Of a stretch of DNA of 32,000 nucleotides, positions 6,055-22,387 are shown in pieces. Position numbers and translations under genes: made by a program. The DNA comes from Candidatus Electronema halotolerans. Lineage in GTDB: Bacteria > Desulfobacterota > Desulfobulbia > Desulfobulbales > Desulfobulbaceae. Position 1 is the stretch's first letter; each line of letters opens with the position of its first letter. The notes under the pieces are model-generated. The model was not told where the DNA came from. It worked only from the letters and a program-made list of their open reading frames with translations, and ran no database searches. Location of the stretch: NCBI GenBank assembly GCA_942493095.1, contig OW818675.1:1140001-1172000 (forward strand), read 5' to 3'.

Positions 6055-6165
6055 ATGAAGAAGGCAGCTAAGGCTCAGAAACCCGTGCAGGACAAAAAGG
6101 TCATGAAAAAAAATGCCTTGATTGTCAAATCAAATGTCAAGGCCGGACGTATCAGGTGGTCATAG
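6055..6165 (+). CDS. Small peptide P3 (36 aa), third and truncated paralogue of P1/P2; not in the ORF track
   Basis: ATG 6055 is preceded by GGAGG (cacGGAGGaaaagcATG). Translation: MKKAAKAQKPVQDKKVMKKNALIVKSNVKAGRIRWS, stop TAG at 6163-6165. It shares the IVKSNVKAG block with P1/P2 and ends 5 residues after it. Confidence 0.55.
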   Translation: MKKAAKAQKPVQDKKVMKKNALIVKSNVKAGRIRWS

Positions 6166-7883: not shown

Positions 7884-7908
7884 CATATTTTTGTGCAATA
7901 ATCATATT

Positions 7909-9393: not shown

Positions 9394-9999
9394 ATGAAAA
9401 AGTTTGCTTTGAAACTCTCAGCAGCGGCACTATGCTTTTTAGCAACTGCTAATTTGGCAGCAGCGGCATCCTCTGGACACAAGGAAACTCGCCAGCTTGA
9501 TCCTGTCCTTCTGAAGACTGTTGGTCAGGCTTTACTCGAAAGGCAGCAGGTAGAGATCGAAAAAAGATACCCTGCCATGCTGTTTAAGCCAGAAATGATG
9601 AACAAAATGATGGGCGAGCTGGCCTTGCAGACTTCCATGCAGAATGCTGTCCAGCCAGTCATCATGAATATGGTTATGGGAATACTTACGAACAACGGTC
9701 AAGGACAGCAAGATGCTGTGAGTAACTTTGCTAACCTGCGTGAACAGATTGTTAAAACACAGCAGGAAGCCATGATGAATATGCATGCACAGGCTCCAAT
9801 GCAAAGTCAGATGCGGGAGAAGATGGTAAATGCAATAGCCCCAACAGGATATTTGCAGGATATATTCATGCCGAGACAGAAGGCTATGACACAAGGGGAG
9901 TTCCATGCTGGCTTTTTTCTACAAGAGCAGATGAAGACAAACCCGGTGCCTCTGCCGGGAATAGAACCGGTGCCTCCACAGTATCCACCGAAAAAATAA
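9394..9999 (+). CDS. Secreted Met/Gln-rich protein of unknown function
   Basis: Signal peptide MKKFALKLSAAALCFLATANLAAAA. The mature part is unusually rich in Met and Gln (MMNKMMGELALQTSMQNAVQPVIMNMVMG...QQEAMMNMHAQAPMQSQMREKM). I recognise no family. Confidence 0.6.
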   Translation: MKKFALKLSAAALCFLATANLAAAASSGHKETRQLDPVLLKTVGQALLERQQVEIEKRYPAMLFKPEMMNKMMGELALQTSMQNAVQPVIMNMVMGILTNNGQGQQDAVSNFANLREQIVKTQQEAMMNMHAQAPMQSQMREKMVNAIAPTGYLQDIFMPRQKAMTQGEFHAGFFLQEQMKTNPVPLPGIEPVPPQYPPKK

Positions 10000-10089
10000 T
10001 TAGGTGGATTCAGGGCAGTTTCGGATTGAGCAGACCCAGATGTATGTAATAATTTGGCATTTGCTCAACCAGAAACTGCTGCATGGCAA

Positions 10090-10118
10090 CTCCCTCAGAA
10101 AAGCCGAGGGAGATTTTT
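10090..10118 (+). terminator. Rho-independent terminator candidate downstream of the Met-rich protein gene
   Basis: ctccctc (10090-10096) pairs with gagggag (10106-10112), followed by ATTTTT (10113-10118). Confidence 0.5.
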
Positions 10119-10128
10119 GAACTGTTTT

Positions 10129-10150
10129 AACATCTTCAATTGAAGATGTT
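10129..10150. promoter_or_regulatory. Perfect 22-bp palindrome (operator-like, or a second hairpin terminator)
   Basis: aacatcttcaa|ttgaagatgtt is perfectly self-complementary, flanked by T-runs, and lies 66 nt upstream of the ATG at 10216. Confidence 0.4.
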
Positions 10151-10215
10151 TTAAGCATAGATTACTTGCCGCTGTTGTTGCGGTTTGAATTCAACTTAAC
10201 AGAGATGATCTTGTC

Positions 10216-10647
10216 ATGAAAATATATTCTACAGCAATAATCCTGTTTTCTTTGTTAGTCAGTAGCACTGCCGTTTTTTCTGCCCCGATTTTTTCTCCTC
10301 ATGTCTGTAGTGGATATAACCAAAAAGGTGGCTCTTGTGTCGCCTCTTGCAAAGCTGGTGAAATTTCAGTATGTCGTGATGCTTCTGATGCAAACGATCC
10401 GCAATGCTATTGCAAAGCAGGAAATAGTGATCGTTCGTTTAATGGTTTTTTGGATAGCCTGAAAATTGAAGCAATCAAAGACAATAACCATTCGCTAGCT
10501 GTTGTTGCAGATATCATTTTACAGGCAGACAGAGACCTTTTTCCTGAAGGAGAAAGGCTGGTGGCCGCTACAGCTCTATGCGATGCCCGACCACCAGAAC
10601 CTCTATACTGCTCAATAAGACTTCCCGATGTGCTGCCATTGCCATAG
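10216..10647 (+). CDS. Secreted Cys-rich protein of unknown function
   Basis: Signal peptide MKIYSTAIILFSLLVSSTAVFSA. The N-terminal module has 7 Cys in about 40 aa (HVCSGYNQKGGSCVASCKAGEISVCRDASDANDPQCYCKAGN). I recognise no family. Confidence 0.55.
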   Translation: MKIYSTAIILFSLLVSSTAVFSAPIFSPHVCSGYNQKGGSCVASCKAGEISVCRDASDANDPQCYCKAGNSDRSFNGFLDSLKIEAIKDNNHSLAVVADIILQADRDLFPEGERLVAATALCDARPPEPLYCSIRLPDVLPLP

Positions 10648-10814: not shown

Positions 10815-11336
10815 ATGCCAACGCCTTTCTCGCAGACTGCCCAAGCCCTGCAAGCAGATCAGGGACGTTTCAGTTTGCTGAGTTTAAGTGTCGCTGTTGT
10901 GATTCTCCTGCTCTGGTGCTGGTGGCTGTTTTATGCGCCTGTCTATCTTTCTGTCAGCAGCACCCAGCTGCACGTGACCTCAGTCGAGCAGCCGACATGG
11001 AAGCTGTCTGAGGGCAGTGGACGGCCAGCAGCGTACCAACAGTATGAAGTGCAGGCGCAGTTCACTCCGGCAGATGCGGCCAACATTAAGGTCGGGCAAG
11101 CGGCAAAGCTGTTTCTGCGCAGCTCAGACACCCTGCCACGACGGCCTCTGCCAGCAATTGTGGCGCAGGTGCAGGCGGACAAGGGGCTTGTCTCTCTCAG
11201 GCTGGAGCTGCCGCAGGAAACCTCAGCCAAGACCTTGGCAGGGACAACCGTTGAGCGGGCCGAAATAGCGATTGCCAAGACATCGCCGGTGAATTTTCTG
11301 CTCCACACTTCATTCGGCATCAAGGCAGTTGACTGA
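10815..11336 (+). CDS. Miniature HlyD-family membrane fusion / secretion accessory protein (173 aa)
   Basis: The N-terminus FSQTAQALQADQGRFSLLSL plus one TM helix (VAVVILLLWCWWLFYAPV) matches the HlyD-type start. The C-terminus (GQAAKLFLRS...AIVAQVQAD...VSLRLELP...VERAEIAIAKTSPVNFLL) matches the HlyD beta-barrel end. The central coiled-coil/lipoyl region seems absent. The stop is 3 nt before the PCAT start. Confidence 0.55.
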   Translation: MPTPFSQTAQALQADQGRFSLLSLSVAVVILLLWCWWLFYAPVYLSVSSTQLHVTSVEQPTWKLSEGSGRPAAYQQYEVQAQFTPADAANIKVGQAAKLFLRSSDTLPRRPLPAIVAQVQADKGLVSLRLELPQETSAKTLAGTTVERAEIAIAKTSPVNFLLHTSFGIKAVD

Positions 11337-11339
11337 CCG

Positions 11340-14054
11340 ATGACAAAAATTGCCTCTTTTCTGGGAATGCGGCAGGATGGCCGCCGTTTTCTCATCCCGG
11401 AAGTGGTGCAAAGCTCGATGATGGACTGCGGGCCTGCGGCCTTGAAAGCCCTGCTGGCCGGATTCAACATTCAGGTCCATTACGACCGGCTCCGGGAAGC
11501 CTGCCAGACTGACGTGGATGGCACCTCCATCGACACTTTGGAGGATTTGGCAGTCCAGCTCGGTCTTGATGCCGTGCAGGTGATGCTGCCTGCGGATCAT
11601 CTCTTTCTCGCCTCAGCAGAAGCCCTGCCCGCGCTGGTGGTGGTGCGGCAGCCGAACGGCTTCACTCATTTCATTGTCTTATGGCGGCTGCATGGCCGCT
11701 GGGCGCAGATTCTTGATCCGGGCACAGGCCGTCATTGGCTCCGCATCGAACAGCTCAAGCAGCGGCTCTACCTGCACCAGCAGAACATTGCGACAGAAGA
11801 CTGGCAGGAATGGTTAAAAAGTCCGGCCTTCTGCGAACCGCTTCAGGAACGGCTGGTCCTGCTCTGCGGCGATCCGGCTTGGTCTGAAGACATTGTCGAA
11901 GAGGCCCGGGCCGCTCAGGGCTGGCAGGAGCTGGCCGCTTTGGATGCAGCGGTGCGGATGACCCAGTCCTTGGTCCGGGCCAAAGGCGTGGGCCGGGGCA
12001 GCAAGGCCGGTCTGCTGGCCCAGCAGCTCGCCTGGCAGCCGGAGAAAATTCCCCTGTTGTACTGGTCAGCCCGGAAAGTGCCTGAAGACAGCAGTTCCGT
12101 GATTATTCAAGGGGCGGTGCTCATTCATGTGGCTGGCCTGCTGGAGCCGGAAGAGGACTTGGAAGAAGAAAGCGGCTCTGATTTCACCCCTGATCAGGAG
12201 AGCGGGCCGTCATCCGCCGCCTTGCGGGCCGCTCTCAGCGAGCCGCCGCCGCCCAGCCCGGAGCAGCATATAGCAAGTGCCCTGCGCGAGGATGGTCTGC
12301 TTGTTCCCCTGCTGATGCTCGCTGGCGTGGTGCTGGCCGGGTTCAGCATCTGCATGGAAATTGTCATGCTGCGCAGTCTGATGGAGGTCTGTCAGCAGAC
12401 GCAGCTCATCAACCAGCAGACAGAGACCTTTGCCGCAGTGACCCTGTTTCTCTGCTGCCTGCTCCTGCTGGAATGGCCTTTGGGACTTGTCGCTTTAGGA
12501 CTGGGCCGCCGTTTTGAAGTCCGGCTGCGGCAGCGTTTTTTGGCAAAACTGCCCAAGCTGGAAGACCGCTATTTTCACAGCCGTCTCACTTCAGACATGA
12601 TTCAGCGGGCCTACGAGCTACAGCAGCTTCAGTTCATTCCCCTGCTGGGCATGAATTTCCTTAAAATGCTTGTTCATGCCCTCTGCATCACCGCTGGCCT
12701 GATTGCGCTCTACCCGGAAGGAGCTTTTCTGATTCTGCTGACCAGTGCGGCCAACATCGCCTTTGCCCTGCTCAGTCAGCCGCTGATGCAGGAGCAGGAC
12801 ATGCGCTTCCGCACCCATACGGCCAGCCTCAGCCGATTCTATTTGGATTCGCTGCAAGGCTTGCTGCCGATCCGCAGTCACGGAGCGGAAAAAGCCCTGC
12901 GCAGCGAGCATGAGCGGCTCTTGGTTGACTGGGCGCGGGCTGGGGGCGAATTTTTCCGCACCTTTGAATGGCTGACGCTCTTCGGTTCCCTGTTGAGCAC
13001 CGGCATGGCCATCTGGTTATTTTTCGACTACATGCACTCCGGCGGCGGCAGCAGCAACACCCTGATCCTGCTTTACTGGATGCTGATGCTGCCCAATCTT
13101 GGCCGTTCCTTGGCCGAGCTGGCCCAGCAGTATCCCTCGCTGCGCAACCGCCTCCTGCGCCTGCTTGAGCCGCTCAACGCCCCGGATGCCAGTCGGCATT
13201 GGTATCCGGCAGAGCAGGAGGAAAATCAGGAGGAGCAGCGCGCAGGCGCGGCAGTGCGGTTTGAGGATGTCAGCGTGGTGCTTTCCGGCCAGACAGTCCT
13301 GAACAATTTGCAGGCCGAGCTGCGTGCAGGAGAACACGTGGCAGTGGTCGGCGCATCTGGGGCGGGCAAATCCACTCTTGTCGGCCTGCTGCTCGGCTGG
13401 CACCGGCCTGCTCAAGGCGGCGCGGTGCGGATCGATGGCAGGCTGCTCCAAGGCGATTTCCTTCAGCAGCTCCGCCGAGAGCTGGTCTGGGTTGACCCCG
13501 AAGTGCAGCTCTGGAATCGTTCGTTCCGCGACAATCTCAGCTATGGCAATGACAGCGGCGACGAGCTGCCGCTGGATATCCTCAGTCAGGCTGACTTGAT
13601 AGACGTGCTGGCCCGCCTGCCAGAGGGCGAGGAAACCCTGCTGGGCGAAAACGGCGGTCTGCTCTCCGGCGGCGAGGGACAACGGGTCAGGCTGGGCCGG
13701 GGCATGAACCGCAGCAGTCCTCGCTTGGTGATTCTTGATGAGCCGTTTCGCGGCTTGACACGCGGCCAACGGCGGGAGCTGTTGACCAAGGCCCGCCGCT
13801 GCTGGCAGACCGCCACCTTGATTTTCATCTCTCATGATGTCAGCGACAGCTTGGGATTTGACCGGGTCTGGATGATGGCGGACGGCGAGCTGATTGAGGA
13901 TGATCACCCGGAAACGCTGGCCGGCCAGCCGGATTCCGCCTATGCCCGCCTGCTGAAACAGGAACGGGCGGTCCGCGAGCAGGTCTGGGAGAGCACTGAC
14001 TGGGTCCGGCTCCGCATTGACAACGGCAGGCTGCACGGCCATGCTGCGGATTGA
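11340..14054 (+). CDS. Peptidase-C39-domain ABC transporter (PCAT, bacteriocin/RiPP-type exporter), elongated form (904 aa)
   Basis: C39 triad context: MMDCGPAAL (Cys30, 11427-11429), GFTHFIVLW, ILDPGTG. A transmembrane domain follows. NBD motifs: Walker A GASGAGKST, signature LSGGEGQRVRLGR, Walker B LVILDEPF. An extra segment of about 170 aa containing an acidic stretch (EPEEDLEEESGSDFTPDQESG) lies between the peptidase and the TMD. Confidence 0.85.
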   Translation: MTKIASFLGMRQDGRRFLIPEVVQSSMMDCGPAALKALLAGFNIQVHYDRLREACQTDVDGTSIDTLEDLAVQLGLDAVQVMLPADHLFLASAEALPALVVVRQPNGFTHFIVLWRLHGRWAQILDPGTGRHWLRIEQLKQRLYLHQQNIATEDWQEWLKSPAFCEPLQERLVLLCGDPAWSEDIVEEARAAQGWQELAALDAAVRMTQSLVRAKGVGRGSKAGLLAQQLAWQPEKIPLLYWSARKVPEDSSSVIIQGAVLIHVAGLLEPEEDLEEESGSDFTPDQESGPSSAALRAALSEPPPPSPEQHIASALREDGLLVPLLMLAGVVLAGFSICMEIVMLRSLMEVCQQTQLINQQTETFAAVTLFLCCLLLLEWPLGLVALGLGRRFEVRLRQRFLAKLPKLEDRYFHSRLTSDMIQRAYELQQLQFIPLLGMNFLKMLVHALCITAGLIALYPEGAFLILLTSAANIAFALLSQPLMQEQDMRFRTHTASLSRFYLDSLQGLLPIRSHGAEKALRSEHERLLVDWARAGGEFFRTFEWLTLFGSLLSTGMAIWLFFDYMHSGGGSSNTLILLYWMLMLPNLGRSLAELAQQYPSLRNRLLRLLEPLNAPDASRHWYPAEQEENQEEQRAGAAVRFEDVSVVLSGQTVLNNLQAELRAGEHVAVVGASGAGKSTLVGLLLGWHRPAQGGAVRIDGRLLQGDFLQQLRRELVWVDPEVQLWNRSFRDNLSYGNDSGDELPLDILSQADLIDVLARLPEGEETLLGENGGLLSGGEGQRVRLGRGMNRSSPRLVILDEPFRGLTRGQRRELLTKARRCWQTATLIFISHDVSDSLGFDRVWMMADGELIEDDHPETLAGQPDSAYARLLKQERAVREQVWESTDWVRLRIDNGRLHGHAAD

Positions 14055-14077
14055 ACCTCTGCTCATGAAGCGCAATT

Positions 14078-16174
14078 ATGATTTTTGAGCTTGTCCTGTT
14101 TGGCGGAGCCGCTGCGGTGTTCTTGGACAATCGGCGCAGCAGGCCAAGTGCGCCGTCCTGCCAGCGACTGACAAAAGGGTGTCAGTCCTGCCCAAAGCCG
14201 TGCCGCCGAAAAAAAGGCAGGCAGATGCGTGATCTGGTCACAGACCGGCACCGGCAGCAGCTCAAGCTGGAGCTTGAGCCGACCCAGGCGGCAGCCTTGG
14301 CAAAAGTGCGGCAGGAGAATCAGCAGACCATGCTGCTCTCGCTGACAGCGTTCAGCTTTTCCCTGCTTGGCAAGCTCATCCTGCCCTTGGTTTCGGTCAG
14401 CATTGCCATCATGCTCTATCTGCTGACCAAGAATATCGCGGACATTAAAAAGGATTTCCAGCGAGGGCAATATGTCAGCACCCATCTGCTCGGCCTGGTC
14501 ATGATCCTTGGCCTGATTGTCACGGACAACGTGGTCTTTGCCGCCATTTCAGTTCTGTCAAGCAGCTTCTTCTCCATGCTTGTCAGGCTGATCAACGAGA
14601 ATTCACAGCAGAAGCTGATCAGCGTCTTCAGCGAACACCCAGCCCAAGTTTGGCTCCTGCAAGATGGAGTTGAGATGCAAACAGATTTTTCCAGCCTTCA
14701 GCGTGGTGATCTTATCGTTGTCAATGCCGGGGAGATGATTCCGGCAGACGGCAGCATCACGGACGGAGAAGGGCTGGTGGATCAGCATCTGCTCACCGGA
14801 GAAAGCCTGCCTGCGGAAAAATCCAGCGGAGATGCGGTTGCCGCCGCAACTCTGCTTCTCAGCGGGCGGCTGGTGATCGCCGTGGCAGGCAGCGGCGAGG
14901 CGGCGATGGCTGCCGAGGTCAACGAAGCACTTGACCGGACGCAGCAGTACAAAGACACCTTGGTACTCCGAGGCCGCCGCATCTATGAGCAGTTTGCTCC
15001 GGTCACACTTGGCCTCAGCGCAGTGACGCTGCCAGTGCTGGGCGCGGATGCAGCCTTGGCCGTGCTGTGGTCTGACATGGGCAGCATTGCTGCGGATGCA
15101 GGCGCAGGCGCGCTGTTCAACTCTCTCCAGCTGTTGGCGCAGGAAGGCATCTTGGTCAAAGACGGCAGAGTCTTTGAGACCTTGCAGGATGTTGACACGG
15201 TTGTTTTTGACAAAACCGGCATCCTGACCTTGCCGCAGCCGACTGTGGGCAAAATTCACCTCTTTGCCGCTGCGGACGAAAAAACAGTGCTTTGCCATGC
15301 CGCTGCCGCAGAATACCGGCAGCAGCATCCGATTGCGCAGGCCATTCTTGCCCACGCCGCTGCCGAGCAGCTTGCTGTGCCGCTGCCGGAAAAAACAATT
15401 TCTGTGGCGGGCGGTGGAGTCAAAGTCTCTGCTGACGGCCAGACAATTGTTGTCGGCAGTGCCCGCTTTTTAGAACAAGAAGGGGTTGTTCTCCCGGAAG
15501 AGGCGTTGCTGGTGCAGCAGGCTGCCAGCAGCGGCCACACGCTCATTTATGTCAGTGCTGACAGCAGGCTGGTCGGCATTTTGGAACTGGAGCCAGCCCT
15601 GCGGCCAGAGGCGGCCAGCATCATCCGGCAATTGCAGAAACGGAATATCAGATGCTGCATCCTCTCTGGCGATCAGGAAAGTGCTGTCAGGCATGCGGCG
15701 GAACAGCTTGGCATCGAAGAATACTGCACTGCCGCGCTGCCTGTTGATAAATATAATTACATAAACGAGCTGCAAAAACAAGGAAGATCAGTCTGCTTTG
15801 TCGGCGATGGTCTCAACGATGTCATGGCCTTGAAAAATGCCCATATTTCGGTGTCTATGAAAGGCGCGGCAGATGCGGCGGTGAATACGGCCCAGATTAT
15901 CTTCACAGATGGAAACTTGGAAAAGCTGCTCAGATTTTTTGACAGATCAAATGAGTTTCAGGAACTGATGAAACGCAATTATTTCATCAGTGTTGCGCCG
16001 AGCGTATTCACCATTGCCGGGGTTTATCTGCTTCATTTCAGAATCACTGCTTCCTTTGCCATCTTCAGCGCAAGCTGCGTAGCTGCTTTTTGCAACACAG
16101 CATGGCCGCTGCTGGAAAAATGCGGAGATAAAGTGAAAATACTTCCTCATGCTGAGGACAAAAATTTAAAATAA
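14078..16174 (+). CDS. P-type ATPase paralogue 1, P1B-like but lacking CPx and HMA domains, with a degenerate DKTGILT motif
   Basis: LTGESLPAEK (TGES), DKTGILT (15209-15229), QQHPIAQAI (P1B-type HP motif), SGD, GDGLNDVMALK. There is no Cys-Pro-x motif and no proline in the helix preceding GILVKDGRV. A Cys cluster, CQRLTKGCQSCPKPC, lies at 14159-14203. The start is supported by the N-terminal helix MIFELVLFGGAAA, which is conserved in the two paralogues. Confidence 0.8.
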   Translation: MIFELVLFGGAAAVFLDNRRSRPSAPSCQRLTKGCQSCPKPCRRKKGRQMRDLVTDRHRQQLKLELEPTQAAALAKVRQENQQTMLLSLTAFSFSLLGKLILPLVSVSIAIMLYLLTKNIADIKKDFQRGQYVSTHLLGLVMILGLIVTDNVVFAAISVLSSSFFSMLVRLINENSQQKLISVFSEHPAQVWLLQDGVEMQTDFSSLQRGDLIVVNAGEMIPADGSITDGEGLVDQHLLTGESLPAEKSSGDAVAAATLLLSGRLVIAVAGSGEAAMAAEVNEALDRTQQYKDTLVLRGRRIYEQFAPVTLGLSAVTLPVLGADAALAVLWSDMGSIAADAGAGALFNSLQLLAQEGILVKDGRVFETLQDVDTVVFDKTGILTLPQPTVGKIHLFAAADEKTVLCHAAAAEYRQQHPIAQAILAHAAAEQLAVPLPEKTISVAGGGVKVSADGQTIVVGSARFLEQEGVVLPEEALLVQQAASSGHTLIYVSADSRLVGILELEPALRPEAASIIRQLQKRNIRCCILSGDQESAVRHAAEQLGIEEYCTAALPVDKYNYINELQKQGRSVCFVGDGLNDVMALKNAHISVSMKGAADAAVNTAQIIFTDGNLEKLLRFFDRSNEFQELMKRNYFISVAPSVFTIAGVYLLHFRITASFAIFSASCVAAFCNTAWPLLEKCGDKVKILPHAEDKNLK

Positions 16175-16184
16175 TGGTTGCAAG

Positions 16185-18290
16185 ATGATCCTTGAACTTA
16201 TCCTTATCGGTTCCGCCACTGCGCATTGGCGGAAGCAAAGATATAAAGAAACTGATCTGGCAGAGATGCCAAAAAAGAAGACAGTATCTATTCAAGAGAA
16301 ATTCAATCCGAAAAAATTGGTTGAGCATATTAAATATGTTTTTACAAACGATGAATGTCAGCCTGTTGTTGCAAAACAAGCGGATACAGACAAAGCAATT
16401 GTCTCTGAAAATCCGTTTTTACAGAGTAATACATTGGTTGCTGCTGGAAATTTTGTCATGGCCCTGCTGGGAGGAATATCTCCACTGTTTATCCTGATGG
16501 CCGTTGTAGGAATTCTCTATGTCTCAAGGAGCATGCTTCTTCTTGCATTGCAAGACCTGAAGAATAGACGATATATGAGCATATTTGTCGTTGAATCCGT
16601 GCTTTTTATAGGCATGATTCTTACAGGTCATCTGATATTGGCAACCTTTTCTTCCCTTTTTGGTGATTCTATTGTTAAACTTATCAATAAAACTGAAGAA
16701 AGCGCCAACAAACAACTCGTCAATGTTTTTGGCAAGCATCCTGAAAAGGTCTGGCTGAAGAAAGATGGATTGGAAATTCAAGTTGATTTTGACAGCATCC
16801 AAGCTGGTGACACGGTTGTTGTCAGTGCCGGAGAGATGATCCCTGTTGACGGTCAAGTCATGGAGGGCTTGGCTACTGTTGATCAGCATATTTTGACCGG
16901 TGAAAGCCAGCCGGTGGAAAAAATGAATGGCGACAAAGTTTTTGCCGCAACGCTGGTCATTTCAGGCCGAATTCATATCTTGGTGGAAACAGCCGGCCAG
17001 AATACTGTGGCGGCGAAAATTGGCGATATCCTCAACAACACCAAGCAGTATAAAGACAAGCTCATGGCTCGCGGCCAAGAGATCACTGAAAGCCTGTTGC
17101 CGCTCCAGTTGAGCGTTTTTGCCTTCACTCTGCTACTGCTGGGCAAAACGTCGGCTCTTACTGTGCTCTGGACTGGACTGGGAACGACCATGGTGATGCT
17201 TGGACCGATAACAGTTTTAAATTATTTACGAGTATTTTCCAGAAACGGGATTTTAATCAAGGATGGACGGGTGCTGGAATCCCTGCATCAAGTTGACACG
17301 ATAGTTTTTGATAAAACAGGAACTTTGACAATGGAACAGCCGGAAGTGGGGGCAATTCACTGCCTGTCCGGCTGGGAGGAAGAGGAAGTTCTGCTCTGCG
17401 CTGCCGCTGCGGAGCGGCGGCAGAGCCATCCTGTGGCCAAGGCCATTTTGTCAAAGGCAGCCGCCTTTGACATAGGTCTGCCTGATTTGGACAGCGCGCA
17501 CTATGAAATGGGATACGGCATCAAAGTTCTTGTCAAAGGGAAGCGTGTCCAAGTCGGCAGCGCTCGTTTCATGCAGCGCGAAAACATTGCTCTGCCGGAA
17601 CAGGTGCTGGATATTCAAGAACAGGCTGAGGATGAAGGCTATTCTCTGATTTATGTGGGAATTGATGGTGAGCTGGCCGGAATTTTGGAAATGCGTCCCT
17701 GCATCCGTCCGGAGGCGGCGACTGTCGTGCGGCATCTGAAAGAGCGCGGCATGAAACTCTATATCATCTCAGGAGATCATGAGCATCCGACAAAAAAAAT
17801 GGCCGAACAGCTCGGCATGGATCATTATTTTGCCGAAGTTCTGCCGGAGCGCAAGGCAGAACTGGTGAAAACCCTTGCTGAAAAAGGACGTTTTGTCTGT
17901 TTCATTGGCGACGGCATCAATGATTCTATTGCTCTGAAATCAGCCCAAGTGTCTGTATCCATTCAAGGCGCGTCAACAGCAGCGACCAACACCGCTCAAA
18001 TTATTTTCATGGATGGAACGCTCAATCATCTACAGCAGCTCTTCCTCTTCTCTGATGAATTTGAAAAGACCATGAAGGTGAATTTCTACACCTCAGTGGT
18101 ACCAGGTGTGCTTTGCTTTGGCGGAGTGTATTTTCTCCATATCGGCCTGACAGCAGGAATGGGCTTGTTCTATGCAGGAACTGCGGCTGGTCTTTTCAAC
18201 ACTTTTGTGCCTGTTTTAAAATATAAAGACAAGGAGCTGGCTGGAAAATGCGGCAGAACTCTCTTGGAAGATCAAACAGCAACCAACTGA
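16185..18290 (+). CDS. P-type ATPase paralogue 2, P1B-like, lacking CPx and HMA domains
   Basis: LTGESQPVEK, DKTGTLT, QSHPVAKAI, ISGDHEHP, GDGINDSIALK. The N-terminal helix is MILELILIGSATA. It starts 10 nt after paralogue 1 and has visibly lower GC. Confidence 0.85.
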   Translation: MILELILIGSATAHWRKQRYKETDLAEMPKKKTVSIQEKFNPKKLVEHIKYVFTNDECQPVVAKQADTDKAIVSENPFLQSNTLVAAGNFVMALLGGISPLFILMAVVGILYVSRSMLLLALQDLKNRRYMSIFVVESVLFIGMILTGHLILATFSSLFGDSIVKLINKTEESANKQLVNVFGKHPEKVWLKKDGLEIQVDFDSIQAGDTVVVSAGEMIPVDGQVMEGLATVDQHILTGESQPVEKMNGDKVFAATLVISGRIHILVETAGQNTVAAKIGDILNNTKQYKDKLMARGQEITESLLPLQLSVFAFTLLLLGKTSALTVLWTGLGTTMVMLGPITVLNYLRVFSRNGILIKDGRVLESLHQVDTIVFDKTGTLTMEQPEVGAIHCLSGWEEEEVLLCAAAAERRQSHPVAKAILSKAAAFDIGLPDLDSAHYEMGYGIKVLVKGKRVQVGSARFMQRENIALPEQVLDIQEQAEDEGYSLIYVGIDGELAGILEMRPCIRPEAATVVRHLKERGMKLYIISGDHEHPTKKMAEQLGMDHYFAEVLPERKAELVKTLAEKGRFVCFIGDGINDSIALKSAQVSVSIQGASTAATNTAQIIFMDGTLNHLQQLFLFSDEFEKTMKVNFYTSVVPGVLCFGGVYFLHIGLTAGMGLFYAGTAAGLFNTFVPVLKYKDKELAGKCGRTLLEDQTATN

Positions 18291-18308
18291 AAACAAGGGG
18301 AGAAGAAG

Positions 18309-19268
18309 ATGAAAAGGCATGTTTCGTATGGAGTATTGGCTGTGCTGTGTGCAATGTCCTTCAATGCGGCGGCATTTGCAGAAGAGATGAAGCAGGAGGC
18401 GCAAACAGCGTCGGCTGATGAGGGCTGGCTTTCCAACGGGGCGGCACTTGGTGTTCCTTGGTGGACAAAGAATCCGAAAAAGCTGGCCTTTATTCCAGAG
18501 CCGCTTCTGTATCATGTTGAACTCAGTTATTCCTACTCCAAAACATCCGGCAATACAGATGTTGAGGATCAGTCTGGCTCAGGAACGCTTTACCTGCGGA
18601 AAAATATAGTCAGCAGCGAGACCTATTTCGATGTCAGCAAAAACGAAACCACGGACAATTTTTCCAGTGCTGACGCAGCCCCTTTTGTGGTGGAAAGTCA
18701 GACCTTCGGACAGGAACTCATCTGGTCCGTAACCGATGTCATCTCTTTGCTGGGCGGTGGTCTCTGGCGGGAGAACGATTCGCAGCGGTATATTGACAGC
18801 AGTCAGACGTACTATGCTGGCGCCCGCACTCGAGTGCTGGACACACCGCAATTCAACCTGAGCCTGACAGCCGCTTACGGCTATATGGACTCATCCTATC
18901 AAAACGACAGAATCACCGCTGTCTATAGTGATTTTCAGCCGGTTGACGACTACGACTCCGGGGTGCTCAATTTCAATGTTGATTTCCGCTGGATGATTAC
19001 GGACAAGATCACCTTTTCAGAGAGTGCGACCTATCTGCATGACATAGACAACACTGACTACTACTGGCTGAATTCAACCAGCAAGCTGGACTTTAAAATT
19101 ACTGACAATCTTTCTTTCTTCACGGAATACAACTGCATTGCCTACCAAAGTCCGCTGATTGAACAAGCGCAGGATTTCCTTGATGCCAAACGGGCGCAAG
19201 GAATCGCGGCTGGCGACATGGAGACAGTGACATCCAAAATCTCCGCAGGAATAACTGTCAGCTTCTGA
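18309..19268 (+). CDS. Outer-membrane beta-barrel protein, DUF481 (YdiY-like) candidate
   Basis: Signal peptide MKRHVSYGVLAVLCAMSFNAAAFA. It shows an alternating-hydrophobic beta-strand pattern. The SYSYSKTSGNTDVEDQSG block resembles the DUF481 SGNT motif. The C-terminus ISAGITVSF ends in Phe, as is typical of OM barrels. Confidence 0.55.
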   Translation: MKRHVSYGVLAVLCAMSFNAAAFAEEMKQEAQTASADEGWLSNGAALGVPWWTKNPKKLAFIPEPLLYHVELSYSYSKTSGNTDVEDQSGSGTLYLRKNIVSSETYFDVSKNETTDNFSSADAAPFVVESQTFGQELIWSVTDVISLLGGGLWRENDSQRYIDSSQTYYAGARTRVLDTPQFNLSLTAAYGYMDSSYQNDRITAVYSDFQPVDDYDSGVLNFNVDFRWMITDKITFSESATYLHDIDNTDYYWLNSTSKLDFKITDNLSFFTEYNCIAYQSPLIEQAQDFLDAKRAQGIAAGDMETVTSKISAGITVSF

Positions 19269-19283: not shown

Positions 19284-19308
19284 GCGGCATTCTTTGCAAG
19301 AATGCCGC
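19284..19308 (+). terminator. Hairpin terminator candidate after the OM-barrel gene
   Basis: gcggcattctt (19284-19294) pairs perfectly with aagaatgccgc (19298-19308) across a 3-nt loop. A second small hairpin (aagcgg...ccgctt) and T-rich tracts (tattttttcttttttt) follow. Confidence 0.5.
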
Positions 19309-19366
19309 AAGCGGCTCTCCTGATCCGCTTTAAAATCGGCGGATATTTTTTCTTTTTTTGCCAATC

Positions 19367-20212
19367 ATGGACAATTCATTGTATGCGTTTGAAAATGTCG
19401 CGCAAAGGTATCAGCAGCTGCGGGCTGCTTACGGGGAACGTGACAGTGACATCTACATCAGCAGTTACACGCGCTCCGGCACAACATGGACACAGATGAT
19501 CCTCTATCAGCTGACAACTGATGGCAATATGGATTTCAAGCATATTTTTGATGTGTCGCCGTGGCTGTTTTATAATGCGCTTAGAGGAACAGAGCCTGTG
19601 CCGAGACCAGAGCCGCGCATTCTGAAAACGCATGATGACTACAGCTCATATTCAAAAGATACAAAAGGCCGTTTCATCTATGTGGTCAGGCATGGAATGG
19701 ATGTGATGGCTTCTTTTTATCACCATAGGGTGAACGTGAAAGGATTCACAGGAACATTTACTGACCACTTCAATGAGTTCATTTATGGCATGGAGTATAA
19801 TGGCCAGCCTTACAACTGGTTTGAGCATGTCAGAGACTGGCTGGAGAATAACAACAATCTCTTTGTCCTGCCGGTGAAATACGAGTCGCTGAAACATGAT
19901 TTTGATGATGCGATTCAGCGGATAATCCAGTTCTGCCGCATTCCGGCAACGGATGAAATACTTAGGCGCACCAAAGAACGGACCACCTTCGCCTTTCTCA
20001 AGCAGCATGAATTGCAGCTTGGCCCTGTCCCAAGCCAGTTCCGCAGGACAGGAGATGCGCCTTATAAAGTGAAAAACCAGCATCAATTCATCCGCAAAGG
20101 GCTGGTCGGCGAAGGTCGTTCCATGCTGACTCCGCGCCAGCAGGAAATATATTCGGCGAAATTTCAAGATACGCTTGGACATCTTGATTTTATTGCCGAA
20201 TATTGCGAATAG
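19367..20212 (+). CDS. PAPS-dependent sulfotransferase, cytosolic (Sulfotransfer_1) type
   Basis: 5'-PSB loop YTRSGTTW; catalytic-His context RILKTHDDY; 3'-PB segment YVVRHGMDVMASFYHH; C-terminal FIRKGLVGEGRSMLT (RKGxxGxW-like). ATG 19367 is preferred over TTG 19358. Confidence 0.8.
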   Translation: MDNSLYAFENVAQRYQQLRAAYGERDSDIYISSYTRSGTTWTQMILYQLTTDGNMDFKHIFDVSPWLFYNALRGTEPVPRPEPRILKTHDDYSSYSKDTKGRFIYVVRHGMDVMASFYHHRVNVKGFTGTFTDHFNEFIYGMEYNGQPYNWFEHVRDWLENNNNLFVLPVKYESLKHDFDDAIQRIIQFCRIPATDEILRRTKERTTFAFLKQHELQLGPVPSQFRRTGDAPYKVKNQHQFIRKGLVGEGRSMLTPRQQEIYSAKFQDTLGHLDFIAEYCE

Positions 20213-20320: not shown

Positions 20321-22387
20321 ATGCTGATTGAAACCTTGCTTCTTTGCGGCGCGCTGTACGCATTCAGAAAAAAAGATGCGCCAGCATCATCTGACAAAGC
20401 AAAACAAACTGACAGTGCCGCTGCCACAGCGGCTGAACTGGAACTGGAAGAAACAGCGCCGCTGCCGCATGAGGATGACAAGTCATTTGTCGAGCAGGAC
20501 AGGAAGGTGGTTGCGCCAGAGCAGGAGATCAACCGAAAATTGATCATCTCCGGCATGTCAACAGCCCTTTGCGCCGGAGGAGCACTTTTTTCCTCTCCTC
20601 CTCTTGCTGTTCTCAGCCTTCCCGGCCTGTTCTACAGCAGCGCGGACATCTTCAAAAGCGCGTATCAGACTTTCCGCAAAGAGAGAAAACTGAATGTTGA
20701 CAGCACAATTGCGGTTGTCACTGTTGTCAGTGTCGCCAATGGCTTTCTCTTTGTCTGCAATCTGAACACCCTGCTTGCCATGACCAGCCGGAAGCTGCTG
20801 CTCAAGGTGAAAAATGACTCGCAGGACAGTGTCATTGATGTCTTCCGGCAGCAGCCGCAGACGGCATGGGTGCTGACTGACGGGATTGAGATTGAACGGC
20901 CTGTCGAGACACTGAAAGCGGAAGATGTGGTGGTGGTCAAGGCTGGCGAAACCATTCCAGTGGATGGATTGATCATTTTCGGCACAGCCTCGATTGATCA
21001 GCATATTCTGACCGGAGAATCGCAGCCTGCGGAAAAAGGCCCGAATGAGAAGGTCTTCGCCTTGACCCATGTCCTCTCTGGAACTATCCACATTTTAGTG
21101 GAACATGCCGGGCAGAAAACCACTGCCGCGCAGATCTGCCGCATTTTGAACCGGACCACCAATCTGAAAACTGACATGCAGTTATGGGCTGAAGAAGCAG
21201 GCAATAAAGCTGTTCCCGCCGCCATGCTGGTCAGCGGCGTGTGCCTGCCAGTCTTGGGCAGCGGCAGCGCATTGGCGGTGCTCAACTCGCACCCCAAGTA
21301 CAAGACCACAATAACAAGCTGCATTGGCCTGCTCAATTATCTCAAAATTGCCTCCAAAAAAGGCATCTTGATTAAAGACGGACGTGTTTTTGAACGGTTG
21401 AACCGAGTTGACACCATAGTTTTTGACAAGACAGGCACCTTGACAGAAAACAAGATGCGGGTTGATGCAATACATGTCTATGATGGATACACGGAAAATG
21501 GTGTTTTAACCTTGGCCGCCCTTGCCGAACAACGGCAGATGCACCCGATTGCCAAAGCTGTTCTTCAAGAAGCTGAGGCACGGAACTTGAATTTCTATGA
21601 AGCGGATGAGCGCGCCTATAAAATAGGCTACGGCCTTGTTGTCAAAAGAAAAAACAAGACCATTCGTGTCGGCAGTGTCCGCTTTATTGAATCGGAAGAA
21701 CTGGCAATTCCCGCGCAAGTTCATGCGGATCATGAACGATGCCGTGACTATGGCCATTCGCTCATTCTGGTGGCAGTCAATGACAGAGTTGTCGGCGGGA
21801 TAGAACTCCAAGCAGTGGTGCGGCAGGAGGTTGGCGAGGTGATCAAGGGTCTGCGGCAGCGCGGCATCAGCTCCATCTATATTATTTCTGGAGACAATGC
21901 CAGCTCCACTAAGCAGCTCTCGGCAGTTTTGGAAACCAACCAATGCTTTGCTGAAGTGCTGCCGGAAGATAAAGCTGACCTGATTGAACAGTTTCAGCAG
22001 GAAGGCCGGACGGTCTGTTTCATTGGCGACGGCATCAATGATTCCATTGCCTTGAAAAAGGCTGATGTCTCTATTTCGCTGCGCGGCGCGTCAACTGTGG
22101 CCACAGACACCGCGCAGATCATTCTGATGGATGAGGGCCTCAATCATCTCTGCGCTCTTTTTGATCTGGCAAAAGAATACGATGCAAATATGCGGATGAC
22201 ATTCAAAACAGTGCTCATTCCCCATCTGCTTGGTCTTGGCGGCGCATTGTTCCTCCATTTCAATCTCTTGCATTCTGTGATCTTGAATCAAATCGGCTTG
22301 GCTCTTGGAGCAGGCAATGCCATGCTGCCGCGCTTCAAGCATCAGGACAGAGGCGGTCACAAGGTGCCGCTCATGCAGGATGAGTAA
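20321..22387 (+). CDS. P-type ATPase paralogue 3, P1B-like, lacking CPx and HMA domains
   Basis: LTGESQPAEK, DKTGTLT, QMHPIAKAV, ISGDNASS, GDGINDSIALK. The N-terminal helix MLIETLLLCGALYA is followed by an acidic linker (ELELEETAPLPHEDDKSFVEQD). Confidence 0.85.
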   Translation: MLIETLLLCGALYAFRKKDAPASSDKAKQTDSAAATAAELELEETAPLPHEDDKSFVEQDRKVVAPEQEINRKLIISGMSTALCAGGALFSSPPLAVLSLPGLFYSSADIFKSAYQTFRKERKLNVDSTIAVVTVVSVANGFLFVCNLNTLLAMTSRKLLLKVKNDSQDSVIDVFRQQPQTAWVLTDGIEIERPVETLKAEDVVVVKAGETIPVDGLIIFGTASIDQHILTGESQPAEKGPNEKVFALTHVLSGTIHILVEHAGQKTTAAQICRILNRTTNLKTDMQLWAEEAGNKAVPAAMLVSGVCLPVLGSGSALAVLNSHPKYKTTITSCIGLLNYLKIASKKGILIKDGRVFERLNRVDTIVFDKTGTLTENKMRVDAIHVYDGYTENGVLTLAALAEQRQMHPIAKAVLQEAEARNLNFYEADERAYKIGYGLVVKRKNKTIRVGSVRFIESEELAIPAQVHADHERCRDYGHSLILVAVNDRVVGGIELQAVVRQEVGEVIKGLRQRGISSIYIISGDNASSTKQLSAVLETNQCFAEVLPEDKADLIEQFQQEGRTVCFIGDGINDSIALKKADVSISLRGASTVATDTAQIILMDEGLNHLCALFDLAKEYDANMRMTFKTVLIPHLLGLGGALFLHFNLLHSVILNQIGLALGAGNAMLPRFKHQDRGGHKVPLMQDE

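What the first reader, a model, noticed from the sequence alone, without database searches (positions are those of the whole stretch)
10815..19268. Operon-like fusion of a peptide exporter with two P-type ATPases and a DUF481 outer-membrane barrel
The gaps between consecutive genes are very short:
- HlyD to PCAT: 3 nt
- PCAT to ATPase-1: 23 nt
- ATPase-1 to ATPase-2: 10 nt
- ATPase-2 to OM barrel: 18 nt

The first convincing terminator comes only after the barrel gene (19284-19308). This implies co-transcription of an ABC peptide exporter with ATP-driven P-type pumps and an outer-membrane protein that is not TolC-like.

I know of no described system that combines these parts. Possibilities include:
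- a multi-component envelope machine in which the ATPases move a counter-ion or metal needed for the peptide product (a metallophore-like peptide);
- self-protection pumps;
- lipid or other non-cation substrates.
Basis: partly seen in the sequence, partly recalled or inferred. Interest (0 to 1): 0.75.

Follow-up and report, generated by a model that had tools for sequence, protein, structure and literature searches.

The report
Peptide-export operon carrying metal-site-less P-type ATPases
In a cable bacterium, a conserved peptide-export gene cassette has had its usual second transporter swapped for two P-type ATPase pumps that lack any metal-binding site and that, in other bacteria, sit inside non-ribosomal peptide synthetase clusters, which hints at an unrecognised non-metal job for this pump family.

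Summary
Five same-strand genes (10815-19268) lie 3/23/10/18 nt apart, and the first hairpins come after the DUF481 gene. The window is from Candidatus Electronema halotolerans.

The "HlyD" is a 173-aa mini-adaptor with a membrane anchor and a beta-barrel but no hairpin. The 904-aa PCAT has intact catalytic motifs.

Upstream I found its probable substrates: three small ORFs with a basic leader ending SN(V/I)KAG. This peptide family accompanies every related PCAT locus I could inspect.

Relatives show a conserved cassette: DUF697, peptide, binding protein, mini-HlyD, PCAT, ABC2, Band-7. One locus (L098) ends with a DUF481 barrel. Here, and in a contig 89% identical in DNA, PCAT is followed by ATPase-1 where ABC2/Band-7 normally sit.

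The ATPases have a P1B fold and full catalytic motifs. None of 92 family members has a CPx motif. In 82 ATPase-anchored loci none has a PCAT or DUF481, but 30 carry NRPS genes, often directly upstream on the same strand.

The window also holds an NRPS, a sulfotransferase and a third ATPase.

The ATPase cargo is unknown, probably organic.

The parts
2..4699 (-). 5' part of an NRPS gene (A, N-methyltransferase, PCP, C), transcribed away from the cassette and running off the window. The + strand ORFs at 794-3673 are antisense artefacts.
   Evidence: Open frame of 1566 codons. Pfam AMP-binding, Methyltransf, PP-binding and Condensation. 53% identical over 474 aa to the L097 NRPS that follows a DUF481 homologue.
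4877..5440 (+). DUF697 membrane protein, the first gene of the conserved cassette
   Evidence: PF05128 E 2.1e-9. Orthologues sit at the same position in L010, L011, L014 and L016. DUF697 also lies directly next to family ATPases in L036, L086 and L093.
5471..5674 (+). Precursor-like peptide A: basic leader ...LPVKSNVKAG, then DFWDSLRSM...
   Evidence: No Pfam or NCBIfam family.
5767..5973 (+). Precursor-like peptide B: ...LPVRSNIKAG, then DFWDDMRSMY.... Good SD (caggagga).
   Evidence: Orthologue at L016:982.
6055..6165 (+). Precursor-like peptide C: ...LIVKSNVKAG, then RIRWS
6294..7883 (+). Radical-SAM/SPASM enzyme, YydG-like peptide epimerase. Low-GC gene (0.35), absent from the close relative L016.
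   Evidence: Pfam Radical_SAM and SPASM. TIGR04078 E 2.9e-44, below its cut-off. GC. L016 gene order.
7873..9234 (+). Periplasmic binding protein (Peripla_BP_6 / ANF_receptor), a cassette member
   Evidence: Orthologues in L010, L011, L014, L016 and L098.
9394..10647 (+). Two secreted proteins of unknown function: a Met/Gln-rich 201-aa protein (9394-9999) and an 8-Cys 143-aa protein (10216-10647). They are inserted between the binding protein and the adaptor; in L016 those two genes are 8 nt apart.
10815..11336 (+). Mini-HlyD: N-terminal tail, one TM helix and a beta-barrel domain. No lipoyl domain and no alpha-hairpin.
   Evidence: No direct Pfam hit. Conserved upstream of PCAT in 7 loci. 116 representative relatives, mostly 150-200 aa. 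The 380-400-aa relatives are true HlyD-family adaptors whose N-terminus and HlyD_3 barrel match residues 1-60 and 76-164. The AF2 model shows a TM helix plus a small beta domain, at low confidence.
11340..14054 (+). PCAT (C39 peptidase, about 180-aa insert, ABC exporter) with intact catalytic motifs
   Evidence: MMDCGPAAL catalytic Cys context, Walker A GASGAGKS, signature LSGGE, Walker B ILDEP, H-loop SHD. Aligns to PCAT1 4ry2, E 6.4e-43. About 900-aa homologues are widespread.
14078..16174 (+). ATPase-1: divergent family member with DKTGI instead of DKTGT and no proline in TM4
   Evidence: The N-terminus is 80% identical in L016, directly after its PCAT.
16185..18290 (+). ATPase-2: typical member of the main 'WSGLG' clade. 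P1B fold, no CPx, no HMA domain.
   Evidence: AF2 mean pLDDT 72; Foldseek top hits are CopA 4bbj (E 3.9e-39) and ZntA.
18309..19268 (+). DUF481 outer-membrane beta-barrel with a signal peptide; good SD (aaggggag)
   Evidence: PF04338 E 1.3e-18. TC 1.B.75, putative 12-strand barrel (PMC4827864). Best homologue is the last gene of the L098 cassette, 47% identity over the full length. Other homologues sit in sulfatase/NRPS loci L096 and L097.
19284..19359 (+). Two hairpins (19284-19308, 11-bp perfect stem; 19323-19344), then a U-tract. Likely terminator of the five-gene unit.
19358..20212 (+). Sulfotransferase (Sulfotransfer_1), followed by a strong terminator at 20283-20306
   Evidence: Sulfotransferases of other Pfam families neighbour family ATPases in L002 (Sulfotransfer_5) and L015 (Sulfotransfer_3). 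ORFs in the same similarity cluster as the L002 gene occur in L036, L041 and L043.
20321..22387 (+). ATPase-3: member of the second clade of the family (TM4 reads NSHPKY)

Best explanation
**What the unit is.** The five genes are real and are most likely one transcript. They are a lineage-specific variant of a widespread, unnamed peptide-export cassette.

**The cassette.** Its core is:
- one or more small precursor peptides with a basic leader ending (S/T)(N/Q)(V/I)(K/R)AG;
- a periplasmic binding protein;
- a truncated HlyD-type adaptor (anchor plus beta-barrel only);
- a roughly 900-residue PCAT, which would cut off the leader and pump out the short amphipathic core (D/GFW(E/D)D..R..Y).

In other genomes the PCAT is followed by a second ABC half-transporter with a degenerate signature motif and by a Band-7 protein. 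In one genome a DUF481 outer-membrane barrel then closes the cassette.

**What is different here.** In Electronema halotolerans the ABC2/Band-7 block has been replaced by two P-type ATPases, while the DUF481 barrel stays at the end. A close relative (L016) keeps at least the PCAT-to-ATPase-1 junction.

**The ATPases.** They belong to a large family with a P1B fold and complete phosphorylation machinery, but without any membrane metal site. Elsewhere the family sits at the ends of NRPS operons or beside other small-molecule biosynthesis genes. I therefore read them as ATP-driven pumps for an organic, non-metal cargo. They would have been recruited into an island that also holds an NRPS, a sulfotransferase and a third copy.

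**Shown:** gene identities, cassette conservation, the block replacement, absence of a metal site, and the NRPS linkage.

**Inferred:** co-transcription, the peptides as PCAT substrates, the barrel as the outer-membrane exit, the nature of the ATPase cargo, and any functional substitution for ABC2.
For: **Genes, gaps, terminator.**

**Source organism.**

**Cassette conservation.** DUF697, peptide, binding protein, mini-HlyD, PCAT, ABC2 and Band-7 occur in this order in L010, L014 and L011. L098 shows the part from the binding protein (cut by the contig end) through Band-7 and ends in DUF481, 47% identical to the window protein.

**Junction conservation.** L016 aligns to window 10814-14215 at 89% DNA identity, running across the PCAT/ATPase-1 junction. 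No ABC2 or Band-7 remnant is left in the window.

**A second case.** In Electrothrix aestuarii L015 a PCAT paralogue without ABC2 lies next to two family ATPases, a sulfotransferase and two KAG-leader peptides.

**Precursor family.** It is present in every PCAT locus whose upstream region is on the contig, and in no ATPase-only locus.

**Mini-HlyD homology.**

**PCAT and ABC2 motifs.** PCAT motifs are intact; the ABC2 signature is degenerate, LSHGE.

**ATPase family.**
- TIGR01525 above cut-off.
- AF2 and Foldseek best matches are CopA and ZntA.
- 0 of 92 members have CPx; TGES, DKTGT and GDGxND are conserved; few membrane residues are conserved and none is charged.

**NRPS linkage.**
- 30 of 82 ATPase-anchored loci hold an NRPS/adenylation ORF.
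- In 15 it is the immediate neighbour; 14 adjacencies are on the same strand, and gaps range from -53 to 208 nt.
- The L037 and L049 NRPSs end in a TE domain directly before the ATPase.

**DUF481 ties to the same clusters.** Genes next to the L096/L097 DUF481 homologues are 55-75% identical to genes next to family ATPases.
Against: - The ATPases occur without any PCAT or DUF481 in all 84 ATPase-anchored loci. Their presence here could be neighbourhood only.
- DUF481 at the end of the cassette is seen in only one other locus.
- Electrothrix and Magnetococcales cassettes lack DUF481.
- The 'ABC2 absent, ATPases present' pattern rests on two or three cases. L011 has both ABC2 and one ATPase nearby.
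- I could not check whether ABC2/Band-7 are encoded elsewhere in this genome.
- ATPase-2, DUF481, the sulfotransferase and ATPase-3 have lower GC (0.46-0.51) than the PCAT (0.61) and the flanks (0.57). This suggests separate origins.
- Many metagenome loci come from a few samples, so they are not independent.
- No experiment links any P1B-like ATPase to an organic cargo.
- SD sequences before the mini-HlyD gene, ATPase-1 and ATPase-2 are weak.
Confidence: 0.55

Rival explanations
1. Pure juxtaposition. The two ATPases, together with the sulfotransferase and ATPase-3, are accessory genes of the neighbouring NRPS cluster. They landed inside the PCAT operon by recombination and deleted ABC2/Band-7. 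They are co-transcribed but take no part in peptide export.
For: - The family is NRPS-linked elsewhere and never PCAT-linked outside cable bacteria and one Magnetococcales MAG.
- An NRPS lies 5' of the cassette.
- Composition is mosaic.
- The precursor peptides track the PCAT, not the ATPases.
Against: - The junction is maintained in a diverged relative at 89% nucleotide identity.
- A second, differently arranged ATPase-plus-PCAT neighbourhood exists in Electrothrix aestuarii, and a third in Magnetococcales.
- The replaced block is exactly the second energising subunit.
- DUF697, the first cassette gene, is also found next to ATPases in three PCAT-free loci.
Confidence: 0.3
2. The ATPases pump a metal or counter-ion that the exported peptide or NRPS product needs, as in a metallophore system.
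For: - The family has P1B ancestry.
- P-type ATPases are annotated in metallophore clusters such as lusichelin (PMC12210259).
- Met-rich and Cys-rich secreted proteins lie in the locus.
Against: - No CPx, SPC, HMA or His-rich domain in any of 92 members.
- No conserved acidic, Cys, His or Met residue in TM4-TM6.
- The cable-bacteria nickel-homeostasis survey lists no P-type exporter (PMC11247825).
Confidence: 0.1
3. The ATPases are non-transporting, degenerate or regulatory P-type ATPases. Their ATP cycle would serve signalling or assembly rather than translocation.
For: - Membrane residues are poorly conserved, whereas cytoplasmic domains are highly conserved.
- ATPase-1 has DKTGI and lacks the TM4 proline.
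- Some neighbourhoods hold histidine kinases and response regulators, for example L001.
Against: - All membrane helices and the P1B architecture are retained across distant lineages.
- The glycine- and proline-rich TM4 is kept.
- Operon position after NRPS TE modules is typical of a transport or immunity gene.
Confidence: 0.05

Closest known systems
PCAT-type bacteriocin/NHLP exporters (PCAT1; TIGR03796 ABC1 + TIGR03797 ABC2 + TIGR03794 HlyD)
   Same: - A C39 peptidase fused to an ABC exporter.
- A second, peptidase-less ABC partner in most relatives.
- A HlyD-family partner.
- Small precursors with a Gly-type cleavage motif encoded nearby.
   Different: - Scores are far below the equivalog cut-offs: 162.6 against 853 bits.
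- There is an insert of about 180 aa between C39 and the membrane domain.
- The adaptor is reduced to anchor plus barrel.
- The leader is basic and ends in KAG, and matches no NCBIfam or Pfam model, including the NHLP/Nif11 leader models.
- Band-7, DUF697, a binding protein and DUF481 are additional partners.
- Here ABC2 is replaced by P-type ATPases.
P1B heavy-metal P-type ATPases (CopA, ZntA, CadA)
   Same: - Fold and topology.
- TGES, DKTGT, HP and GDGxND motifs.
- TIGR01525 above cut-off.
   Different: - No CPx or equivalent motif in TM4.
- No TM5/TM6 metal ligands.
- No HMA domain.
- A conserved N-terminal MLIEL helix.
- Genomic context of NRPS and small-molecule biosynthesis rather than metal resistance.
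TCDB 'functionally uncharacterised P-type ATPase' (FUPA) families
   Same: Prokaryotic P-type ATPases with intact catalytic motifs and unknown substrate. The concept is cited in PMC3573892.
   Different: I could not test which FUPA family, if any, this one corresponds to. The primary paper is not held. Any assignment would rest on memory only.
orf16 / orf23 of the miuraenamide A cluster (Paraliomyxa miuraensis)
   Same: Two 686- and 728-aa 'heavy metal translocating P-type ATPases' lie between PKS/NRPS core genes. Their size and placement match this family (PMC10051162).
   Different: - Homology to this family is not tested, because no sequence was available.
- Deleting the regions that contain them did not abolish heterologous production; one deletion raised the yield.
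Type I secretion (HlyB-HlyD-TolC)
   Same: An ABC exporter plus a HlyD-family adaptor in one operon.
   Different: - No TolC/OEP gene among the window ORFs that were scanned.
- The adaptor lacks the alpha-hairpin that contacts TolC.
- A DUF481 barrel occupies the outer-membrane position.

Membership tests
PCAT (peptidase-containing ABC transporter) | N-terminal C39 peptidase domain with a catalytic Cys | tested here: met
   PF03412 E 2.8e-18 at residues 22-141. The MMDCGPAAL Cys context is conserved in all 8 homologues compared.
PCAT (peptidase-containing ABC transporter) | Type I ABC exporter membrane domain plus a canonical NBD | tested here: met
   Aligns to PCAT1 4ry2 over residues 368-873, E 6.4e-43. 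Walker A, signature, Walker B and H-loop are present. Pfam ABC_membrane is only weak, E 0.003.
PCAT (peptidase-containing ABC transporter) | Cognate substrate with a double-glycine-type leader | tested here: inconclusive
   Conserved small ORFs with ...(V/I)(K/R)AG followed by a conserved core accompany every PCAT locus examined. Cleavage is not testable with these tools.
NHLP bacteriocin export system (TIGR03796 equivalog) | Score above the equivalog cut-off | tested here: not met
   162.6 bits against a cut-off of 853.3.
HlyD / membrane-fusion (periplasmic adaptor) family | N-terminal membrane anchor plus a beta-barrel (HlyD_3) domain | tested here: met
   Met by transitive homology only. 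There is one TM helix. Residues 1-60 and 76-164 match the N-terminus and the HlyD_3 region of 380-400-aa proteins that are bona fide HlyD-family members. The direct Pfam hit is marginal: 1 of 7 members, E 0.018. Foldseek was non-significant, with ZneB, EmrA and BesA among the weak hits.
HlyD / membrane-fusion (periplasmic adaptor) family | Lipoyl domain and alpha-helical hairpin | tested here: not met
   The protein has only 173 aa. The AF2 model shows one long helix and a small beta domain. About 210 residues are missing relative to the full-length relatives.
P1B-type heavy-metal ATPase | P-type catalytic motifs (TGES, DKTGT, GDGxND) and the P1B HP motif | tested here: met
   Conserved in at least 98% of 92 members. 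ATPase-1 deviates with DKTGI.
P1B-type heavy-metal ATPase | P1B fold and topology | tested here: met
   TIGR01525 scores of 363-389 bits against a cut-off of 346. Foldseek top hits are CopA 4bbj (E 3.9e-39) and ZntA 4umw. Hydropathy is consistent.
P1B-type heavy-metal ATPase | TM4 CPx/xPC metal-binding motif | tested here: not met
   CPC aligns to L-G-T in ATPase-2. 0 of 92 family members carry CPx at this position.
P1B-type heavy-metal ATPase | N-terminal metal-binding domain (HMA or His-rich) | tested here: not met
   No HMA hit in Pfam for any of the three copies. The N-terminus is instead a conserved MLIEL helix and a variable linker.
DUF481 outer-membrane barrel (TC 1.B.75) | PF04338 above the gathering score, and a signal peptide | tested here: met
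   68.3 bits against 21.1. N-terminal hydrophobic segment ending ...AAAFA. Barrel strand number was not tested.
Type I secretion system | TolC-family outer-membrane factor encoded with, or used by, the system | tested here: not met
   No OEP/TolC domain in any window ORF that was scanned. Use of a distant tolC cannot be excluded.

The most novel reading that the evidence does not exclude
The CPx-less P1B-like ATPases are ATP-driven translocators of organic cargo: non-ribosomal or ribosomal peptides, or sulfated small molecules. That would be a new substrate class for type-I P-type ATPases, comparable to the lipid flippases among P4 and the helix or polyamine pumps among P5. They would be interchangeable with the ABC2/Band-7 half of a PCAT exporter, so that in cable bacteria a P-type pump works together with a PCAT, a hairpin-less adaptor and a DUF481 barrel as one envelope-spanning export route.
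Probability: 0.2. Interest if true: 0.85.

Novelty: new variant of a known kind. Interest (0 to 1): 0.6.

Why it matters
P-type ATPases related to CopA and ZntA are routinely annotated as "heavy metal translocating". This family is annotated that way in cable bacteria, Thioploca, Parabeggiatoa and Methylobacter, and Methylomonas, Magnetococcales and Chloroflexota MAGs also carry members. Yet it has no metal site and sits inside NRPS operons. If it moves organic cargo, that changes how such genes should be read in biosynthetic clusters and adds a substrate class to the P1 branch.

Separately, the analysis uncovers a conserved but unnamed peptide-export cassette. It comprises a KAG-leader peptide, a binding protein, a hairpin-less HlyD, a roughly 900-aa PCAT, and then either ABC2/Band-7 or the ATPases, with or without DUF481. 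It occurs in filamentous and gradient-dwelling bacteria, and its peptide core (GFWEDMRxLY) is strongly conserved. That level of conservation looks more like a signal or structural peptide than a bacteriocin.

Both points are directly testable with heterologous expression.

Tried and rejected
**Searches that gave little or nothing**
- Exact-sequence look-up of ATPase-2 returned nothing.
- The single-protein scan of genome contigs found only three true relatives, plus CPx-less Clostridioides/Lachnospiraceae ATPases at 33% identity.
- For the mini-HlyD, a profile search of solved structures found nothing. Direct Pfam gave one marginal HlyD_3 hit. The single-sequence AF2 model had pLDDT 60.7 and Foldseek gave no significant match. 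Homology was only settled through the exhaustive representative search and its full-length intermediates.
- The precursor peptides match no NCBIfam or Pfam model.
- Literature searches for FUPA, for cable bacteria plus P-type ATPase, and for Beggiatoa/NRPS found no description of this family or cassette. The nickel-homeostasis survey of cable bacteria does not mention these genes. Chan et al. 2010 could not be read.

**Ideas considered and rejected**
- Nickel export for the conductive fibres. The family is common in non-cable bacteria and has no metal ligands.
- + strand ORFs at 794-3673 as genes. They are antisense to an NRPS.
- A self-resistant copy of a drug-targeted pump. There is no housekeeping counterpart with the same membrane site.
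- Remnants of ABC2/Band-7 in the window. None were found.
- NBD degeneracy in the PCAT that might explain loss of ABC2. The motifs are canonical whether or not ABC2 is present.
Full report
**1. The observation**

The window comes from Candidatus Electronema halotolerans, a cable bacterium: ATPase-2 is 100% identical to a protein of that genome.

| Gene | Coordinates | Length | Gap to next |
|---|---|---|---|
| mini-HlyD | 10815-11336 | 173 aa | 3 nt |
| PCAT | 11340-14054 | 904 aa | 23 nt |
| ATPase-1 | 14078-16174 | 698 aa | 10 nt |
| ATPase-2 | 16185-18290 | 701 aa | 18 nt |
| DUF481 | 18309-19268 | 319 aa | - |

- Pfam and NCBIfam confirm a C39-ABC transporter, two P-type ATPases above the TIGR01525 (P1B) cut-off, and a DUF481 protein.
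- No hairpin folds in the short gaps.
- After DUF481 there is an 11-bp perfect hairpin at 19284-19308, then a second hairpin at 19323-19344 followed by a U-tract.
A sulfotransferase (19358-20212) is closed by a strong terminator (20283-20306), and a third ATPase of the same family follows (20321-22387).

**2. The exporter half belongs to a conserved cassette with its own peptide substrates**

Homologues of the roughly 900-aa PCAT are numerous. They occur in cable bacteria, Magnetococcales, Mariprofundaceae, Parabeggiatoa/Thiomargarita, Desulfobacterales and Chloroflexota.

Neighbourhoods in Electrothrix (L010, L014) and Magnetococcales (L011), plus the close relative L016 up to its contig end, share one order:

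DUF697, small ORF, periplasmic binding protein, a protein of about 171 aa, PCAT, a second ABC protein of about 720 aa, Band-7.

The small ORF is a conserved precursor-like peptide. It has a basic leader ending (S/T)(N/Q)(V/I)(K/R)AG, followed by (G/D)FW(E/D)D(M/L)(R/K)..Y.

- The window has three copies, at 5471-5674, 5767-5973 and 6055-6165.
- L010, L011, L012/13, L014, L015 and L016 each have one or two.
- No ATPase-only locus has a convincing one.
- No Pfam or NCBIfam model matches these peptides.

The PCAT keeps its catalytic Cys context and canonical NBD motifs. ABC2 has a degenerate signature, LSHGE. From general knowledge of heterodimeric ABC exporters, this suggests a PCAT/ABC2 heterodimer in the standard cassette.

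**3. The 'HlyD'**

The 173-aa protein has no direct family hit. A profile search of solved structures also found nothing. An exhaustive search found 116 representative relatives, mostly 150-200 aa.

Several relatives of 380-400 aa align to it in two pieces. Query residues 1-60 match their N-terminus. Query residues 76-164 match their residues around 283-374. Those longer proteins are bona fide HlyD-family adaptors carrying HlyD_3, Biotin_lipoyl_2, HlyD_D23 and TIGR01843.

The protein is therefore a HlyD-family adaptor reduced to membrane anchor plus beta-barrel, without a lipoyl domain or alpha-hairpin. The low-confidence AF2 model agrees. In canonical systems the missing hairpin is the part that reaches TolC (general knowledge).

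**4. DUF481 is part of the cassette in another genome, and the ATPases replace ABC2/Band-7**

L098 carries a PCAT 65% identical to the window's. Its gene order is:

binding protein, mini-HlyD, PCAT, ABC2, Band-7, a 56-aa membrane protein, DUF481.

That DUF481 protein is the closest homologue of the window's that I found: 47% identity over the full length, 308 bits.

In the window the same frame (mini-HlyD, PCAT..., DUF481) encloses ATPase-1 and ATPase-2 instead of ABC2/Band-7. No remnant of the lost genes is left.

L016 aligns to window 10814-14215 at 89% DNA identity, straight across the PCAT/ATPase-1 junction, up to the end of its contig. The replacement therefore predates that divergence.

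Two looser associations exist:
- In Electrothrix aestuarii L015 the order is NRPS, FGE-sulfatase, ATPase, ATPase, sulfotransferase, DnaJ/TPR, two KAG-leader peptides, mini-HlyD, and a PCAT paralogue with no ABC2 after it.
- In Magnetococcales L011 one family ATPase lies three genes upstream of an otherwise complete cassette.

**5. The ATPase family**

All three window copies have TGES, GDGxND and the P1B HP motif. ATPase-2 and ATPase-3 have DKTGT; ATPase-1 has DKTGI.

The AF2 model of ATPase-2 (mean pLDDT 72) matches CopA and ZntA best, at E 1e-37 to 1e-39 over 627-681 alignment columns.

The membrane metal site is absent:
- CopA's CPC aligns to L-G-T.
- The CopA YN position in TM5 reads PG.
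- No HMA domain is present.

In an alignment of 92 family members from 86 loci, none has CPx. Cytoplasmic motifs are conserved in at least 98% of members. Only a few membrane positions reach 85% conservation (Y112, G148, G320, A324, P341, P640, G647, N672, P676), and none of them is charged.

There are two main clades:
- a 'LWSGLG' clade that includes ATPase-2;
- an 'LN(A/S)HFGY' clade that includes ATPase-3.

ATPase-1 is a divergent offshoot. Tandem arrays of 2-5 copies occur in L004, L015, L036, L063, L070, L087 and L091.

**6. What the ATPases keep company with**

I examined 79 metagenome loci and 5 genome loci anchored on the ATPase. No PCAT or DUF481 homologue lies in the up to 10 kb of flanking sequence held on each side.

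De novo clustering of neighbouring ORFs gave NRPS/adenylation proteins as the largest neighbour family:
- 30 of the 82 ATPase-anchored loci with a near-full-length ATPase ORF hold such an ORF.
- In 15 loci it is the immediate neighbour.
- 14 adjacencies are on the same strand, and gaps range from -53 to 208 nt.

The L037 and L049 NRPSs end in thioesterase domains directly before the ATPase. L015 and L001 show NRPS or PKS by precomputed Pfam.

Other recurrent neighbours are:
- an FAD-oxidoreductase / stand-alone adenylation enzyme / carrier-protein trio;
- an AlaX-like protein;
- sulfotransferases;
- a PALP enzyme;
- GNATs;
- carbamoyl- and methyl-transferases.

The DUF481 subfamily touches the same clusters. 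Its two other homologues lie beside sulfatases and NRPS genes (L096, L097). Their neighbours are 55-75% identical to genes that flank family ATPases in L002, L022, L024, L026, L038 and L059. The L097 NRPS is 53% identical to the window's NRPS.

The window itself carries the start of an NRPS on the minus strand at 2-4699.

Many of the metagenome loci come from a few samples, so the counts are not independent events. The operon-like adjacency nevertheless recurs in many different gene arrangements.

**7. Interpretation**

*Shown:*
- the five-gene unit;
- the cassette and its peptides;
- the hairpin-less adaptor;
- the conserved PCAT-to-DUF481 frame;
- the in-place replacement of ABC2/Band-7 by two ATPases;
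- the lack of a metal site;
- the NRPS linkage of the family.

*Inferred:*
- The PCAT cleaves after KAG and exports the short amphipathic core.
- The binding protein handles it in the periplasm.
- DUF481 provides the outer-membrane passage in place of TolC.
- The ATPases move an organic rather than a metal cargo.

Whether the ATPases take over the role of ABC2/Band-7 or merely ride in the operon is open. I give the integrated reading about one chance in three.

The metal reading is disfavoured by the sequence evidence. A purely regulatory role is unlikely given the retention of the whole membrane architecture.

**8. Relation to what is known**

- The exporter works like a PCAT/NHLP-type system but fails the equivalog thresholds.
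- The ATPases are P1B by fold but fail the defining metal-site features.
- TCDB recognises 'functionally uncharacterised' P-type ATPase families (PMC3573892). I could not establish which, if any, this one is.
- The only literature parallel I found is the miuraenamide cluster. There, two 686- and 728-aa 'heavy metal translocating P-type ATPases' interrupt the PKS/NRPS genes and are dispensable for heterologous production (PMC10051162). Homology to this family is untested.
- Lusichelin authors list such an ATPase among metallophore transporters (PMC12210259).
- No paper on cable bacteria mentions these genes.

**9. Verdict**

This is a new variant of known kinds: a PCAT exporter and a P1B-like ATPase. 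It has two features worth following up: the metal-site-less, NRPS-linked ATPase family, and the unnamed KAG-leader peptide cassette. Interest 0.6.

Noticed in passing
window 5471-5674, 5767-5973, 6055-6165; also L010:6871, L011:6750, L012:8840, L014:5002, L015:15965 and 16244, L016:982: A conserved, unannotated family of small peptides. They have a basic leader ending (S/T)(N/Q)(V/I)(K/R)AG and then a conserved core, (G/D)FW(E/D)D(M/L)R..Y. They are found only next to the roughly 900-aa PCATs. The core is nearly identical between Electrothrix and a Magnetococcales MAG, which is unusual for a bacteriocin.
   Followed up: partly
window 6294-7883: A YydG-like radical-SAM/SPASM peptide epimerase (TIGR04078 E 2.9e-44, below its cut-off). 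Its GC is 0.35 in a 0.57 background. It sits right after the three peptides and is absent from the 89%-identical relative L016. It looks like a recent insertion that may modify the peptides.
   Followed up: partly
window 9394-9999 and 10216-10647: Two secreted proteins without family hits, one Met/Gln-rich (201 aa) and one with 8 Cys (143 aa). They are inserted between the binding protein and the mini-HlyD, which are 8 nt apart in L016.
   Followed up: no
window 2-4699 (minus strand): An NRPS start module (A with embedded methyltransferase, PCP, C) runs off the window. The three + strand ORFs of 273-293 aa at 794-3673 are antisense artefacts of it.
   Followed up: yes
window 14078-16174: ATPase-1 carries DKTGI instead of DKTGT and has no proline in TM4 (WSDMGSIAADAGAGALFNS). 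It is the most divergent member of the family seen.
   Followed up: partly
L010:7127-9454, L014:5153-7654: In Electrothrix the cassette's binding protein is extended by TSP_3 repeats and an OmpA domain. That predicts anchoring to peptidoglycan.
   Followed up: no
L098:10612-10713: A 33-aa ORF that is all leader (...RRKRLRTGVKAG, then stop) lies downstream of the DUF481 gene. It may be a decayed or core-less precursor.
   Followed up: no
L004, L036, L087 (also L063, L070, L091): Arrays of two to five paralogous CPx-less ATPases lie in tandem, usually mixing the two main clades. DUF697 lies directly beside family ATPases in L036, L086 and L093.
   Followed up: partly
L006-L009: Clostridioides difficile and Lachnospiraceae ATPases about 33% identical to ATPase-2 also lack CPC in TM4 (MVDFSCALKL). 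They may be a separate metal-site-less group in Firmicutes.
   Followed up: no
window 1-32000: Strong compositional mosaic from gene to gene, GC 0.35-0.61 inside the island (rSAM 0.35, binding protein 0.40, PCAT 0.61, ATPase-2 0.46). The low-GC binding protein is equally low in L016, so part of the heterogeneity is old.
   Followed up: partly
window 25877-26911 (minus strand): An ORF with a strong match to the delta-type carbonic anhydrase family (PF10563, E 2.4e-76), next to MTHFR-C-terminal, DUF362 and Fe-S genes.
   Followed up: no
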